From the IMG/VR virus record IMGVR_UViG_3300025437_000009: a stretch of 64,000 nucleotides of DNA. One strand, given 5' to 3'. The DNA comes from a virus (Duplodnaviria; Caudoviricetes). A program made the translations under genes and the position numbers. Below the pieces are notes generated by a model. The model did not search any database and was not told where the DNA came from. It saw only the letters and a program-made list of their open reading frames with translations. Shown here one piece after another: positions 3,692-34,451 of the stretch. Position 1 is the first letter of the stretch. Each line of letters begins with the position of its first letter.

Positions 3692-3721
3692 ACTAGCTCC
3701 TTCTTTATTAATAATACAACT

Positions 3722-3750
3722 ATTATACTATTTTGGCAATTATGGGTCAA
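3722..3750 (-). promoter_or_regulatory. sigma70-type promoter with AATTGCCAAAAT spacer motif
   Basis: TTGACC-cataattgccaaaatag-TATAAT (17 nt). Confidence 0.8.
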
Positions 3751-4043
3751 GCACCATAGTATACTGCATCTGCATCAGCAAGCTCTTCGGCTTGTTCCAA
3801 TACATCAAAATCTGCCTCCTCTACTACCCAACCGTTGGCACGAAGTTCATCACGGCCTACACGGGTTTCCTTCAAGCGATCCATTTGATTGTGGATAGCA
3901 TTGATTGAAGCTTCTAAATATTCACGGTCACGCCATTGTTCGGGAGTAGCATAACGTGGTCGGAAACCAAAAAAGTCTTTATGGAAATCGCTCAAATAAC
4001 TCTGCAATTCTTCAACTGTTAAATCTGCTAAATGGTTTTGCAT
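3747..4043 (-). CDS. hypothetical protein
   Basis: 98 aa ORF with AAGGAG RBS and its own promoter. Confidence 0.75.
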   Translation of the reverse strand: MQNHLADLTVEELQSYLSDFHKDFFGFRPRYATPEQWRDREYLEASINAIHNQMDRLKETRVGRDELRANGWVVEEADFDVLEQAEELADADAVYYGA

Positions 4044-4072
4044 TGCCGCTCCTTGTTAATTACTATACCCAT

Positions 4073-4101
4073 AGTATAGCATTTTGGCAATTTGGGCACA
4101 A
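4073..4101 (-). promoter_or_regulatory. sigma70-type promoter with spacer motif
   Basis: TTGTGC-ccaaattgccaaaatgc-TATACT (17 nt). Confidence 0.7.
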
Positions 4102-4109
4102 CCAAAATT

Positions 4110-4790: not shown

Positions 4791-4796
4791 ACTAAG

Positions 4797-4825
4797 AGTA
4801 TAGCATATTGGCAATTTATGGTCAA
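4797..4825 (-). promoter_or_regulatory. sigma70-type promoter with spacer motif
   Basis: TTGACC-ataaattgccaatatgc-TATACT (17 nt). Confidence 0.8.
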
Positions 4826-4850
4826 CAAAAAACCCGCCTCAGCGGGTTCG
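4826..4850 (-). terminator. intrinsic terminator
   Basis: AACCCGC-tgag-GCGGGTT followed by a T run. Confidence 0.8.
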
Positions 4851-5212: not shown

Positions 5213-5253
5213 AAACCCGCCAAAGTGTGCATTGTTAAGAGGCATGGCGGGTA
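5213..5253 (-). terminator. probable terminator after groEL
   Basis: ACCCGCCA...TGGCGGGTTT hairpin with a short T tract. Confidence 0.5.
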
Positions 5254-5273: not shown

Positions 5274-7198
<1,925 letters not shown>

Positions 7199-26622: not shown

Positions 26623-26698
26623 TGGTGGTAATAGTTAGATTCGAACTAACGACCTGCGCCGTATGAAGGCGATGCACTACCGCTGTGCTATATTACCA
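26623..26698 (-). tRNA. tRNA-Met/Ile2(CAU)
   Basis: Loop TTCATAC, U1-A72, CCA. Confidence 0.88.
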
Positions 26699-26711
26699 TA
26701 TTGAAACACAC

Positions 26712-26903
26712 TTAATAAATGTACTTTAATATGGTAGGACCGGTCAGACTTGAACTGACAACCTCGAAGTTAAAAGCCTCTTGCTCTGCCTTTGAGCTAC
26801 GATCCCTCTGTTTCGTTAGCTTACGTAGAGCTTTATTGCTCTTGCGGTGCGAGCCCGCCTTCCGTTTACTAGCTAGTACAGCATAAATGTTTCTTTGTTT
26901 CAT
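26712..26903 (-). CDS. Lys/Arg-rich small ORF reading through tRNA-Lys
   Basis: AGGAG RBS, MKQRNIYAVLASKRKAGSHRKSNKALRK... Confidence 0.45.
   Translation of the reverse strand: MKQRNIYAVLASKRKAGSHRKSNKALRKLTKQRDRSSKAEQEAFNFEVVSSSLTGPTILKYIY
26732..26806 (-). tRNA. tRNA-Lys(UUU)
   Basis: Loop CTTTTAA, CCA. Confidence 0.93.
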
Positions 26904-27081: not shown

Positions 27082-27157
27082 TGGTGCCTCCTCCTGGTTT
27101 CGCGCCAGGCTATCCAGCTCTTCAGACTGGCGCTTTCACTAGATTAGCTTAAGAGGC
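27082..27157 (-). tRNA. tRNA-Phe(GAA), atypical D/T loops
   Basis: Loop CTGAAGA, T loop CGCGAAA, CCA. Confidence 0.8.
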
Positions 27158-27758: not shown

Positions 27759-27832
27759 TGGTGGAGGATGAGAGAATCGAACTCTCAATCTCGGCTTGCA
27801 AAGCCGATGTTATCCCATTTAACTAATCCCCC
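27759..27832 (-). tRNA. tRNA-Ala(UGC)
   Basis: Loop TTTGCAA, G3:U70, CCA. Confidence 0.95.
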
Positions 27833-30647: not shown

Positions 30648-30723
30648 TGGCTCCCCGAGCTGGGCTCGAACCAGCGACACCGTGATTAACAGTCACGTGC
30701 TCTACCAACTGAGCTATCAGGGA
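30648..30723 (-). tRNA. tRNA-Asn(GUU)
   Basis: Loop CTGTTAA, G73-CCA. Confidence 0.95.
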
Positions 30724-30810: not shown

Positions 30811-30885
30811 TGGCGGTCCCAACCGGAATCGAACCGGTCTCTCCTCAGTGACAGTGAGGAATACTAACCGATATACTATAGGACC
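30811..30885 (-). tRNA. tRNA-Asp(GUC)
   Basis: Loop CTGTCAC, G73-CCA. Confidence 0.95.
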
Positions 30886-31310
30886 AATTTACTACCTTTA
30901 GGCATACGACCAGTGCGTATAGCATTACCCAACTTTGCCGCGGCCTTTAATCTTTTTCTACCTTCCTCACTAACATTTTTTACACCCCAAGTATCTGTTT
31001 GGGAATGACAGTTAGGACAAAGATATCTTAAATTCTCAACTACATTGTTAGTATTGTTGCCATCAATGTGATCAATCTGCAAACTTAAAGGTTTTCCTTT
31101 ATGAGTTCCGTTATTATCACATTCAACACACTTATATTCTGTATTTTTCTTAAAATACGTATAAGCATTTGCTCTTGTATATACACCACTCTCTATTTTT
31201 TCATTTAGAGAATGTTTTTTTTGGCAAGCAATACTACAATATTTTCCAGATTTTTGTGATGGCATCCATCTAAAATCATTTTTACAGCATAAACAGGTTG
31301 CAATAGGCAT
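30876..31310 (-). mobile_element. free-standing HNH homing endonuclease
   Basis: LQIDHIDGNNTNN...NLRYLCPNCH, with Cys pairs at the N-terminus. Confidence 0.85.
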
Positions 31311-31511
31311 AGGTTAGTTCTCCTTATATCTATTTATCATTCTAACCTGTTATTTATAATTTATGGGAACCTGTTGCCTAGGGCGTTTTTAGTGCCTAGG
31401 TCCGCGGTTGCCTTCCGGACTTGATTCCCACTTACTTCTCAGCAGATCGAGAATGCTCGACGCGGCTAGTGCTTACACACTATTCAATACAGTCGCCACT
31501 GTAACCGAGTT

Positions 31512-31608
31512 TGGTGGACGCTCTTGGAGTTGAACCAAGACGGCTTGACTAAGTAGTCAATTATGAAGCCTTAACAGGTCTTACCGTAAGCCAATTTTAA
31601 CAACGCCC
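31512..31608 (-). ncRNA. 97-nt tRNA-like RNA with Ala identity and no canonical anticodon arm
   Basis: Acceptor GGGCGTT/AGCGTCC (G3:U70), A73-CCA, T arm CTTGG-TTCAACT-CCAAG. Confidence 0.6.
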
Positions 31609-32026
31609 GTAAACAAAATGGTAATAACTTACCATACAACTAAACACTCGGAGGTATCGGAGAGCAAATACATTGACCTCTCAGCAACTCAACGGAATTT
31701 TAATTTGCTCTTACCGTTTGTTGTTGGAATGTTTATGTGTATGGTGTCTTATCGTCTTTTTCATGCCCGCTATCGTCAATAGCACACGCATTTCATATAT
31801 TGTCAGACTCAAGCGATTCTGTTTGGGGTACATGTTGACTAGACATAACCTCCCTCCCGATCTACTCTCAAACCATATTGAAACACACTACCTACGCACC
31901 ATACGGCGTAGCCCACCCGTGGAACCTTTGATCAACTCCGGCCTAAGTATGCTTCAATATAGTAACCCCTCCCGGGGTGCTAATATTCTACTTAAATTGT
32001 TAATGAACTTTAACTACTAAAACAAT

Positions 32027-32055
32027 AGTATAGCATTTTGGCAATTAAAGGACAA
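32027..32055 (-). promoter_or_regulatory. sigma70-type promoter with spacer motif
   Basis: TTGTCC-tttaattgccaaaatgc-TATACT (17 nt). Confidence 0.7.
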
Positions 32056-32067
32056 CCATAATAAACA

Positions 32068-32311: not shown

Positions 32312-32395
32312 TGGTGGAGCATCCTGGGATCGAACCAGGCATGTCAAAGACGGCGGATTTACAGTCCACTGCATCACCGTTGATGCTTCTGCTCC
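32312..32395 (-). tRNA. tRNA-Tyr(GUA)
   Basis: Loop CTGTAAA, long variable arm, CCA. Confidence 0.92.
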
Positions 32396-34363: not shown

Positions 34364-34451
34364 TGGTGGGCCGGGAGGGACTTGAACCCACAATGAGCTT
34401 TCGCTGGTCGATTATGAGTCGACTGCCTGCAACCAATACGGCGTCCGGCCC
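34364..34451 (-). tRNA. tRNA(CAU) with a long variable arm
   Basis: Loop CTCATAA, variable arm AGC-GAAA-GCT, 3-bp D stem, A73-CCA. Confidence 0.85.

What the first reader, a model, noticed from the sequence alone, without database searches (positions are those of the whole stretch)
31512..31608. tRNA-like RNA with alanine identity but no anticodon loop
Seen: a 7-bp acceptor with G3:U70 and A73-CCA, a canonical T arm and a weak D-like arm. In place of the anticodon arm is ACGGT-AAG-ACC(T)GT with a 3-nt loop, followed by a long arm GGCT-[TCATAAT bulge]-TGACT-ACTT-AGTCA-AGCC. Established: G3:U70 suffices for AlaRS charging, and it is the tmRNA tRNA-like-domain signature. There is no room for an mRNA-like domain. 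Inference: a mini-TLD that could bind SmpB/EF-Tu, interfere with trans-translation, act as a nuclease decoy or donate Ala non-ribosomally.
Basis: partly seen in the sequence, partly recalled or inferred. Interest (0 to 1): 0.7.

Follow-up and report, generated by a model that had tools for sequence, protein, structure and literature searches.

The report
Alanine-type tRNA look-alike in phage
A giant freshwater phage carries, among its 27 tRNA genes, a 97-base RNA gene that keeps the alanine-accepting end of a tRNA but has a forked arm where the codon-reading arm should be; it is real and appears conserved, is not a tmRNA, and its job is unknown.

Summary
The element is real: window 31512-31608, minus strand, 97 nt, in a same-strand array of tRNA genes that all encode CCA. 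It has a 7-bp acceptor stem with G3·U70, A73 and CCA, and a canonical T arm.

The body is not a normal tRNA. Rfam's tRNA model gives 12.9 bits (cut-off 29) and aligns only the acceptor and T arms. ARAGORN forces a "tRNA-Asn(GUU)" with two G·U D-stem pairs. The lowest-energy fold is a 14-nt D-like loop, then a 5-bp helix carrying two hairpins, then the T arm.

No tmRNA family matches it. The same test gives the known tag-less tmRNA of phage DS6A 34.7 bits.

Two independent metagenomes hold it:
- one copy is identical, beside flanks that differ by 2.5%;
- one is a variant in a different context, whose match ends at the predicted RNA ends, with a compensatory U50-A63 to C-G change.

It is absent from 47 related phage records.

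Best reading (0.45): a maintained, tRNA-derived, probably alanine-charged, non-decoding tRNA mimic. This is a new variant of a known kind. This scan noted similar alanine mimics on other phage DNA before. Function is untested.

The parts
31512..31608 (-). The whole 97-nt tRNA-like RNA gene. RNA position i corresponds to window position 31609-i.
   Evidence: ARAGORN call at these ends. A variant contig from another study matches the window only over 31510-31608. Folding z-score is -2.66.
31602..31608 (-). Acceptor stem 5' strand GGGCGUU (RNA 1-7); G3 is at 31606.
   Evidence: Pairs 7 of 7 with 31516-31522; pair probabilities 0.68-1.0.
31588..31601 (-). D-like region GUUAAAAUUGGCUU (RNA 8-21): no convincing stem, G at position 8, GG for the T-loop contact.
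   Evidence: ARAGORN finds two G·U pairs only. The Rfam tRNA model skips it. C19 is deleted in the X8 variant. The motif AAAAUUGG is otherwise found only in two tRNA-Tyr genes of related phages.
31583..31587 (-). Helix H2, 5' strand ACGGU (RNA 22-26).
   Evidence: Pairs with RNA 65-69 in the MFE and centroid folds; probabilities 0.56-0.71. No covariation data are available.
31566..31582 (-). Hairpin A (RNA 27-43). Either a 6-bp stem with bulged A30 and a GUUA tetraloop, or ARAGORN's 4-of-5-bp anticodon stem with the 7-nt loop CUGUUAA (GUU = Asn).
   Evidence: The loop is identical to that of the phage's real tRNA-Asn. It is unchanged in both natural variants.
31545..31560 (-). Hairpin B (RNA 49-64): UUGACU-ACUU-AGUCAA. 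This is the 'variable arm' of the ARAGORN reading.
   Evidence: Present in every fold model. U50-A63 becomes C50-G63 and loop A55 becomes U in the X8 variant.
31540..31544 (-). Helix H2, 3' strand GCCGU (RNA 65-69), directly abutting the T stem.
31523..31539 (-). T arm CUUGG-UUCAACU-CCAAG (RNA 70-86).
   Evidence: Aligned with high posterior probability to the Rfam tRNA model; canonical G53, T54, Psi55, C56, A58 and C61 equivalents.
31512..31522 (-). Acceptor 3' strand AGCGUCC (U70 at 31518), discriminator A73 (31515) and encoded CCA (31512-31514).
31435..31630 (-). Replaceable 196-nt cassette: a 22-nt leader, the RNA gene, and a 77-nt trailing stretch.
   Evidence: An X9 contig joins 31434 to 31631 with 77 other letters between. 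X6 and X8 contigs leave the window sequence at 31630 (tables 5 and 7).
30876..31310 (-). HNH homing-endonuclease gene 200 nt downstream. It is a separate mobile cassette, not part of the RNA.
   Evidence: PHROG and Pfam HNH hits. In related phages the HNH gene sits before tRNA-Asp and the homology stops at about 31350.

Best explanation
It is a tRNA-derived gene for a non-decoding tRNA mimic with alanine identity, kept as a discrete unit of the phage's tRNA array.

Shown:
- A complete acceptor/T-arm half with G3·U70, A73 and an encoded CCA.
- A body that neither tRNA nor tmRNA models accept.
- Ends that coincide with the ends of the unit conserved in another genomic context.
- One compensatory base-pair change.

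Inferred from established rules:
- It is transcribed with the array.
- It is cut at G1 by RNase P and trimmed to CCA, because both enzymes need only the acceptor/T minihelix.
- It is alanylated by the host AlaRS, because G3·U70 with A73 is sufficient even in minihelices and in odd tRNAs.
- It cannot read codons. The D stem is missing, and the anticodon-type hairpin sits on top of an extra 5-bp helix, which makes the arm about twice the normal length.

Inferred weakly: the charged or uncharged RNA acts as a competing ligand for proteins that read the top half of tRNA-Ala or tmRNA (AlaRS, EF-Tu, possibly SmpB), or that read a GUN anticodon hairpin. Of these roles I rank interference with, or a tag-free form of, ribosome rescue first, at about 0.15 absolute. 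Two things favour it: a tag-less tmRNA of phage DS6A does this in E. coli, and sister phages carry complete tmRNA genes.
For: - Acceptor, T arm and CCA are as described. It is on the same strand and has the same CCA style as 26 neighbouring tRNAs, which already cover all 20 amino acids including Asn and Ala.
- G3·U70 plus A73 is exclusive to tRNA-Ala among 868 distinct tRNAs of the family.
- The Rfam tRNA model scores 12.9 bits against a cut-off of 29 and aligns only the acceptor and T arms. The phage's own odd tRNAs score 34-44 bits.
- The H2-plus-two-hairpins fold is 10 kcal/mol better than the ARAGORN cloverleaf. Whole-fold z-score is -2.66.
- Natural variation: an X7 contig from another study has 0 changes in the 97 nt against 7 in the 283 nt upstream (chance of 0 about 0.09).
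- Natural variation: an X8 contig from a third study matches only 31510-31608. Three of its five base differences are listed, plus one deletion. Two of the three listed restore the U50-A63 pair as C-G (my estimate: about 1% by chance). The third lies in that hairpin's loop, and the deletion lies in the D-like loop.
- Literature: G3:U70 makes long-armed odd tRNAs accept Ala in vivo (PMC5389517). A tag-less tmRNA of phage DS6A inhibits E. coli tmRNA (PMC11915505). Jakobid mitochondria keep tag-less tmRNA (PMC3590771).
- Related phages carry permuted tmRNA genes.
Against: - Only two independent variants exist, so H2 and hairpin A have no covariation support.
- Two of the five base differences in the X8 contig are not listed, so I cannot place them. 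Retention of G3·U70 in that variant is therefore unverified.
- The element is absent from the closest sampled relative (91% identical neighbouring gene), from the whole records behind 47 related loci, four of them at least 95% complete, and from all pattern scans. A narrow, young distribution also fits a neutral relic.
- There is no expression, processing or charging data.
- No tmRNA signature motifs, so SmpB binding is doubtful.
- The exact tRNA-Asn loop CUGUUAA hints that the hairpin may still be an anticodon arm.
Confidence: 0.45

Rival explanations
1. Neutral relic: a duplicated or recombinant tRNA gene (a type-II, Tyr-like or mixed parent) that lost its D stem and decoding geometry. It survives because it is young, or only because its acceptor/T half still serves as an RNase P / 3'-trimming punctuation mark between the upstream leader RNA and the HNH mRNA. 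On this view G3·U70 is an accident, one transition away from the A3-U70 of related tRNA-Tyr genes.
For: - Very narrow distribution.
- It sits in a slot that holds other sequences in relatives; an X9 contig has 77 other letters there.
- tRNA arrays here are reshuffled around HNH genes.
- Related tRNA-Tyr genes have A3-U70, U6·G67, the same rare D loop and, in L223, the same T loop.
- Only the acceptor and T arms look canonical.
Against: - The compensatory change in hairpin B, with no change in the remaining body positions covered by the listing.
- The unit is kept intact while both flanks are replaced (X8).
- Zero changes against 2.5% in the adjoining sequence (X7).
- G3·U70 with A73 is otherwise strictly avoided outside tRNA-Ala in this family.
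- Ancestry from tRNA-Tyr is not statistically secure.
Confidence: 0.27
2. An aberrant but working type-II tRNA, as ARAGORN draws it: anticodon GUU on a long-variable-arm scaffold. It would be charged with Ala through G3·U70 (or with Tyr or Asn), so that it recodes or mistranslates AAY (Asn) codons, like the allo-tRNAs with G3:U70.
For: - ARAGORN calls a cloverleaf with the 7-nt loop CUGUUAA, U33 and A37.
- That loop equals the loop found in the family's tRNA-Asn genes (37 distinct sequences carry it).
- The nearest tRNA-Tyr genes also have only a 2-bp D stem in ARAGORN's drawing.
- Allo-tRNAs with G3:U70 insert Ala in E. coli (PMC5389517).
Against: - The D stem is two G·U pairs, position 8 is G, and 4 and 5 unpaired bases flank a 26-nt variable region.
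- The anticodon stem has an A·G mismatch.
- This fold is 10 kcal/mol worse, and the 31-39 pair has probability about 0.
- The Rfam tRNA model rejects the D and anticodon arms.
- The phage already has a normal tRNA-Asn.
- Proteome-wide Asn-to-Ala substitution would be costly.
Confidence: 0.1
3. A true, highly reduced tmRNA (a homologue of the tRNA-like domain), as in phage DS6A or jakobid mitochondria, working with SmpB.
For: - Same layout and similar size as the DS6A RNA: 83 nt, a 14-nt D loop, then a helix, then the T arm.
- Alanine identity.
- T loop UUCAACU as in E. coli tmRNA (from memory).
- Related phages carry tmRNA genes.
Against: - No match to any tmRNA family at E<=10, while DS6A scores 34.7 bits in the same test.
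- No UCGAC D-loop motif and no linker before the T stem.
- No similarity to the relatives' tmRNA genes.
- ARAGORN's tmRNA mode finds nothing.
Confidence: 0.08

Closest known systems
Tag-less (CDS-less, TLD-only) tmRNA of mycobacteriophage DS6A, with the reduced tmRNAs of jakobid mitochondria and some plastids (PMC11915505, PMC3590771)
   Same: - A small phage-encoded RNA with G3·U70 and A73.
- A stemless 14-nt D-type loop, a helix in place of the anticodon stem, a T arm, and no tag reading frame (DS6A RNA located at L267 28478-28560).
   Different: - The window RNA is not recognisably homologous to tmRNA: no Rfam tmRNA hit, against 34.7 bits for DS6A.
- It lacks the UCGAC motif and a linker before the T stem (CAC in DS6A; GGAC in the relatives' tmRNAs).
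- It carries two hairpins on the helix, one of them with a tRNA-Asn-type loop.
- It encodes its CCA.
- It lies inside a tRNA array.
Allo-tRNAs and other long-variable-arm tRNAs with G3:U70 and non-alanine anticodons (Mukai et al. 2017, PMC5389517)
   Same: Long extra arm, G3·U70 on a tRNA whose anticodon is not an alanine one, found in bacteria and phages. They have been proposed as missense suppressors or regulatory RNAs.
   Different: Allo-tRNAs have 8/4 or 9/3 acceptor/T stems, proper D and anticodon arms, and decode in E. coli. This RNA is 7/5, has no D stem, and has an irregular, probably non-decoding body.
Stable RNAs C and D (species 1 and 2) of the phage T4 tRNA cluster
   Same: Small non-tRNA RNAs encoded among phage tRNA genes and matured with them, function unknown. 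This comparison rests on memory and on an earlier scan note, e1-5380246.
   Different: No sequence relation was tested here, and no alanine identity is known to me for them.
Canonical type-II tRNA-Tyr of related phages (L223 3131-3217, L169 5208-5294)
   Same: The rare D loop AAAAUUGG, a 2-bp D stem in ARAGORN's drawing, the U6·G67 wobble, A73, a long variable arm, a loop one base away from CUGUAAA, and (in L223) the T loop UUCAACU.
   Different: Overall identity is only about 57%. G3·U70 stands in place of A3-U70, the D-stem pairs are G·U instead of G-C, the variable region is 26 nt with the extra helix H2, and the anticodon is GUU. Acceptor/T and D-region comparisons do not single out Tyr.

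Membership tests
Canonical tRNA (Rfam RF00005 / ARAGORN cloverleaf) | 7-bp acceptor stem, discriminator base, CCA end | tested here: met
   GGGCGUU/AGCGUCC, A73, encoded CCA.
Canonical tRNA (Rfam RF00005 / ARAGORN cloverleaf) | 5-bp T stem with a 7-nt T-Psi-C loop | tested here: met
   CUUGG-UUCAACU-CCAAG, aligned at high posterior probability.
Canonical tRNA (Rfam RF00005 / ARAGORN cloverleaf) | D arm with a 3-4-bp stem, U8, A14, G18G19 | tested here: not met
   G at position 8 and only two G·U pairs. A 3-bp A-U alternative has probability 0. The model skips the region. GG is present.
Canonical tRNA (Rfam RF00005 / ARAGORN cloverleaf) | Anticodon arm: 5-bp stem and 7-nt loop at the standard distance from the core | tested here: inconclusive
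   ARAGORN finds 4 of 5 bp plus the loop CUGUUAA. The energy model closes the loop and places the hairpin on an extra 5-bp helix. The Rfam model skips it.
Canonical tRNA (Rfam RF00005 / ARAGORN cloverleaf) | Score at or above the curated family threshold | tested here: not met
   12.9 bits against 29; no hit at gathering threshold.
tmRNA, including TLD-only forms (RF00023, permuted, mitochondrial) | Alanine identity: G3·U70, A73, CCA | tested here: met
tmRNA, including TLD-only forms (RF00023, permuted, mitochondrial) | Recognisable tmRNA tRNA-like domain (D-loop consensus with UCGAC, helix 2a, linker, T arm) | tested here: not met
   No tmRNA-family match at E<=10 on 105 nt. The positive control, DS6A TLD-only RNA, scores 34.7 bits (E 4e-13) in the same kind of search.
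tmRNA, including TLD-only forms (RF00023, permuted, mitochondrial) | mRNA-like domain with resume codon and tag frame (full tmRNA only) | tested here: not met
   97 nt in all. ARAGORN's tmRNA mode finds none in the window. No similarity to the relatives' tmRNA genes.
tmRNA, including TLD-only forms (RF00023, permuted, mitochondrial) | Binding of SmpB and entry into stalled ribosomes | not testable with these tools
   Needs biochemistry. The rest of this phage's ~290-kb genome could not be searched for an SmpB gene.
Allo-tRNA (Mukai 2017) | 12-bp acceptor branch split 8/4 or 9/3 | tested here: not met
   7/5.
Allo-tRNA (Mukai 2017) | Long variable arm | tested here: met
   6-bp hairpin at RNA 49-64, with one compensatory change in a natural variant.
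AlaRS substrates (functional class) | G3·U70 in a regular acceptor helix with A73 and G2:C71 | tested here: met
   Sequence features are present and are exclusive to tRNA-Ala in this family. Actual charging was not tested.

The most novel reading that the evidence does not exclude
Phages have built, from an ordinary tRNA rather than from tmRNA, an alanine-charged RNA that cannot decode. It would be delivered to ribosomes, or to tRNA-directed host enzymes, to release stalled ribosomes without tagging, or to block host trans-translation or a tRNA-targeting defence. That would be a convergent, tRNA-derived counterpart of the tag-less tmRNA, and one member of a wider, undescribed class of anticodon-defective tRNA mimics in phage tRNA arrays. 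A second, better-conserved mimic with no alanine marks (no G3·U70) in sister phages is listed under Noticed in passing.
Probability: 0.18. Interest if true: 0.72.

Novelty: new variant of a known kind. Interest (0 to 1): 0.45.

Why it matters
Phage tRNA arrays are now read mainly as replacement pools against host tRNA-cleaving defences and codon mismatch. A maintained array member that keeps only the charging and processing half of a tRNA shows that these arrays also carry RNAs with other jobs.

If it is alanylated and meets the ribosome or SmpB, it would be a second, independent route to the tag-less tmRNA solution known from phage DS6A and from organelles. It would also give a compact natural tool for probing trans-translation.

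Practically, it is a case where ARAGORN reports a confident-looking but misleading "tRNA-Asn". That call inflates tRNA counts and suggests a duplicate Asn isoacceptor that is probably not one.

Tried and rejected
- **Exact and degenerate pattern scans.** Four patterns in IMG/VR found nothing. Two in species genomes found nothing. One two-anchor pattern in metagenome contigs gave two hits, both chance matches inside a marine coding sequence.
- **Similarity searches over fetched loci.** blastn, nhmmer and a structural descriptor over 240 loci found no second copy.
- **Single-sequence covariance model R1.** Run over 65 sources and over the whole records behind 47 related loci, it returned only ordinary tRNAs at 27 bits or less. 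One 108-nt hit in L085 proved to be the acceptor piece of a permuted tmRNA with a chance 5' partner.
- **Variant contigs through neighbouring genes.** The phosphoesterase at 100% identity gave three copies of the same phage. The 92% group lacks the element. HNH relatives at 77-80% lack it. The 54-aa pseudo-ORF next to it has no called homologues.
- **This phage's own 290-kb contig** could not be searched.
Stretches without contig cover in X6 and X9 are not counted as absence.
- **A second anticodon-like string**, UUCAUAA at RNA 42-48, has no stem and was rejected.
- **The 77 nt after the CCA** fold as a three-hairpin cloverleaf, but the z-score is only -1.3, so I treat it as unproven.
- **A group I intron or HEARO-type RNA** around the HNH gene: no Rfam support.
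- **Descent from tRNA-Tyr.** It is suggested by rare motifs but not singled out by acceptor/T or D-region scoring, so I leave it as a lead.
- **Literature.** One search on phage non-canonical tRNAs gave nothing specific.

Full report
**Setting.** The window is part of an uncultivated freshwater jumbo myophage.
- It encodes a GroEL, a 1103-aa tail sheath, and a large terminase 54% identical to that of Pseudomonas phage PA5oct.
- The same phage lies on contigs of up to 290 kb in several lake samples.
- Between 21.3 and 34.5 kb, all on the minus strand, ARAGORN finds 25 tRNA genes and Rfam adds tRNA-Phe and tRNA-Tyr.
- All of them encode CCA, and all 20 amino acids are covered without the element studied here. 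A normal tRNA-Asn(GUU) lies at 30648-30723 and a tRNA-Ala(UGC) at 27759-27832.

**The observation.** On the minus strand, 31608 to 31512 reads as a 97-nt RNA.
- The acceptor GGGCGUU pairs 7 of 7 with AGCGUCC, giving G3·U70 and U6·G67.
- It has A73 and an encoded CCA.
- The T arm CUUGG-UUCAACU-CCAAG carries every canonical T-loop residue.
- Among 868 distinct CCA-ending tRNAs that I collected from this phage family, G3·U70 with A73 occurs in 32 of 32 tRNA-Ala and in no other isotype. The alanine marks are therefore not a chance feature.

**The body.** ARAGORN labels the gene tRNA-Asn(GUU), but its cloverleaf is irregular.
- The D stem is two G·U pairs and position 8 is G.
- The anticodon stem has an A·G mismatch.
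- The variable region is 26 nt, with four and five unpaired bases on either side of a 6-bp hairpin.

Rfam's tRNA model does not report the element at its gathering score, nor at E<=10 in 0.5-kb and 1.9-kb searches. On 105 nt it scores 12.9 bits against a cut-off of 29 and aligns only the acceptor and T arms. The phage's own unusual tRNAs still reach 34-44 bits.

Folding gives a different body:
- RNA 8-21 is unpaired.
- ACGGU (22-26) pairs with GCCGU (65-69) and abuts the T stem.
- That helix, H2, carries hairpin A (27-43: bulged A30, GUUA tetraloop) and hairpin B (49-64: ACUU loop).

Energies of the three folds:

| Fold | Energy (kcal/mol) |
|---|---|
| H2 plus two hairpins | -27.0 |
| ARAGORN's cloverleaf | -17.2 |

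The whole fold has a z-score of -2.66.

'No anticodon loop' depends on the model. The seven bases CUGUUAA are exactly the loop found in the family's tRNA-Asn genes. Energetically, however, the loop is closed. If H2 forms, the hairpin also sits on five extra base pairs, too far from the elbow to decode.

**Is it conserved?** It is not conserved across the clade. I found no copy in:
- 240 loci of related phages, by blastn, nhmmer and a structural descriptor;
- the whole IMG/VR records behind 47 related loci, four of them at least 95% complete, searched with a covariance model built from the element;
- the closest sampled relative, whose neighbouring phosphoesterase is 91% identical;
- the 92% phosphoesterase group and the 77-80% HNH relatives;
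- seven pattern scans of three collections.

Public read sets do hold it. Apart from runs that may be the source of the window, contigs of two other studies carry it.

In X7 (a microbial-mat metagenome) one contig covers 31472-31891. It has seven differences, all upstream of 31644, and none in the 97 nt. At that rate the chance of none is about 0.09.

In X8 (an aquatic metagenome) a 967-nt contig matches the window only over 31510-31608, that is, the predicted RNA from G1 to CCA plus two bases. Its changes are:
- U50 to C and A63 to G, which together turn the U50-A63 pair of hairpin B into C-G;
- A55 to U, in that hairpin's loop;
- loss of C19, in the D-like loop.

I estimate the chance that two of three random substitutions restore one predicted pair at about 1%. 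Two further differences are counted for this contig but not listed, so I cannot place them. I therefore cannot confirm that G3·U70 is kept in that variant.

An X9 contig joins 31434 to 31631 with 77 other letters between, and contigs of X6 and X8 leave the window at 31630. So 31435-31630 is a replaceable cassette in an otherwise shared frame.

Together these results show a discrete unit whose ends match the predicted mature ends. It moves or persists independently of its flanks, and the little variation seen is of the constrained kind. This is thin but real evidence against simple decay.

**Is it a tmRNA fragment?** Related phages do carry permuted two-piece tmRNA genes, with tags such as ANDEQFALAA. 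The window has none.

Jakobid mitochondria also keep tmRNA without the mRNA-like part, with G·U at position 3 and an A discriminator (PMC3590771).

I located the DS6A RNA at L267 28478-28560. It is 83 nt: acceptor, a 14-nt D loop ending in UCGAC, a helix with an inner hairpin, three linker bases, then the T arm. The window RNA has the same layout, including a 14-nt stemless loop.

The family test separates them. On about 100 nt, Rfam's tmRNA model gives the DS6A RNA 34.7 bits (E 4e-13). No tmRNA family reaches E<=10 on the window RNA. The UCGAC motif and the linker before the T stem are also missing. It therefore may work like a tRNA-like domain, but I do not file it as one.

**Origin.** It is tRNA-derived, but the parent is unresolved.
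- The D loop AAAAUUGG occurs elsewhere only in two tRNA-Tyr genes (L223, L169).
- Those genes also have a 2-bp D stem in ARAGORN's drawing, U6·G67, A73 and a long variable arm.
- They have A3-U70, one transition from G3·U70, and the loop CUGUAAA, one base from CUGUUAA.
- L223 also shares the rare T loop.
- Scoring of the acceptor/T half or of the D region does not single out Tyr. A GUUA...UAAC type of D arm, common in tRNA-Ala, Thr and Ile of these phages, fits about as well if bases 8-9 are missing.

**What it most likely does.** The steps that follow from established rules are these.
1. RNase P and the 3' trimming enzymes need only the acceptor/T minihelix, so it should be matured like its neighbours.
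2. G3·U70 with A73 is sufficient for AlaRS even in minihelices, and it makes odd long-armed tRNAs accept alanine in vivo (PMC5389517). It should therefore be alanylated.
3. Without a D stem and with a forked, over-long lower arm, it should not decode.

My best reading (0.45) is a maintained, alanine-accepting, non-decoding tRNA mimic. Its downstream role is inference only. I rank competition with, or a tag-free version of, ribosome rescue first, at about 0.15 absolute. Next comes a decoy for an enzyme that reads GUN anticodon loops or the tRNA-Ala acceptor.

Rivals:
- A neutral relic, possibly kept as a processing mark between the upstream leader and the HNH mRNA (0.27).
- A working but aberrant tRNA that puts Ala at Asn codons (0.10).
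- A true reduced tmRNA (0.08).

**Relation to earlier notes of this scan.** Word and place look-ups show that the scan has already noted anticodon-less alanine-type tRNA mimics in other phages and bacteria, and T4 RNAC/RNAD-like small RNAs in lake jumbo phages. None shares sequence with this element.
- Those notes gave me the DS6A lead, which I checked myself.
- They do not count as evidence for function.

**Verdict.**
- The alanine-mimic idea is reasonable, but the tmRNA kinship fails its test.
- The element is real and probably under selection. It is rare and of unknown function.
- It is a new variant of a known kind, of moderate interest.

Noticed in passing
L138 4767-4877; L149 11659-11769; L136 2003-2112; L160 13232-13342; L139 from 15482; L157 from 4586; L150 from 15772: A second, better-conserved tRNA-shaped RNA of about 111 nt in sister phages, not called by ARAGORN. 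It has a covarying 7-bp acceptor stem, a tRNA-Leu-like D arm, a CCUCC/GGAGG stem holding an insert of roughly 20-30 nt where the 7-nt anticodon loop should be, a long variable arm, a canonical T arm and ACCA. It looks like another anticodon-defective tRNA mimic family; it has no G3·U70.
   Followed up: partly
L082 659-1073; L083/L084 3820-4197; L114 5090-5424; L159 1999-2323; L085 about 5720-6110: Related phages carry permuted two-piece tmRNA genes next to a tRNA-Met, with tags ANDEQFALAA, ANASNDEVFALAA and a 29-residue tag. The L085 copy is missed by ARAGORN: its acceptor piece ends at 5827, and its 5' strand GGGCCAU starts at 5917.
   Followed up: partly
window 34364-34451 (-); e.g. L103 4820-4911, L124 4969-5063, L158 895-989: The window has an 88-nt tRNA with anticodon CAU and a long variable arm. 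Many relatives have 90-95-nt long-armed 'tRNA-Ile(UAU)' genes. Type-II architecture is unusual for Met/Ile tRNAs.
   Followed up: no
window 31630-31890 (-) and 31372-31434 (-): Two non-coding blocks flank the cassette and recur, about 90-97% identical, in contigs of four other runs, some at very high depth. Substitutions in the first block do not favour third codon positions of its 40-aa ORF. The second folds as a stem enclosing two hairpins (z-score -2.4). They are probably leader or UTR RNAs.
   Followed up: partly
window 31872-31889 and 26695-26712 (-): An 18-nt motif, AGUGUGUUUCAAUAUGGU, is repeated just 5' of tRNA-Met2. It also occurs in L095, L098, L122, L127, L158 and L170. It is possibly a processing or promoter-proximal signal that precedes tRNA 5' ends.
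   Followed up: no
window 32010-32062 (-); 4056-4108; 4794-4826; 3709-3753: A promoter-like sequence (TTGTCC, 17 nt, TATACT with an upstream TG) just downstream of tRNA-Gly(UCC), about 420 nt 5' of the element, is repeated three times elsewhere in the window. It is likely a phage promoter class, and implies a separate transcription unit for the element and the HNH gene.
   Followed up: no
L081 8547-8620; L095 304-377; L099 90-163: The tRNA-Gln(UUG) genes of three relatives have U1·U72 and G3·U70 with G73. This is an alanine-type wobble pair in a non-Ala tRNA.
   Followed up: no
window 27085-27157 and 32315-32395 (-): tRNA-Phe(GAA), with the odd T loop GCGAAAC, and tRNA-Tyr(GUA) are found by Rfam (44.3 and 33.9 bits) but missed by ARAGORN. 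ARAGORN does call the non-canonical 97-nt element.
   Followed up: partly
window 5215-5251 (-): An Rfam abiF RNA motif match at 49.6 bits (cut-off 37), next to the phage GroEL gene.
   Followed up: no
window 31435-31511 (-): The 77 nt right after the CCA can fold into a closed four-way junction with three tetraloop hairpins. The z-score is only -1.3, and no comparative data are available.
   Followed up: partly
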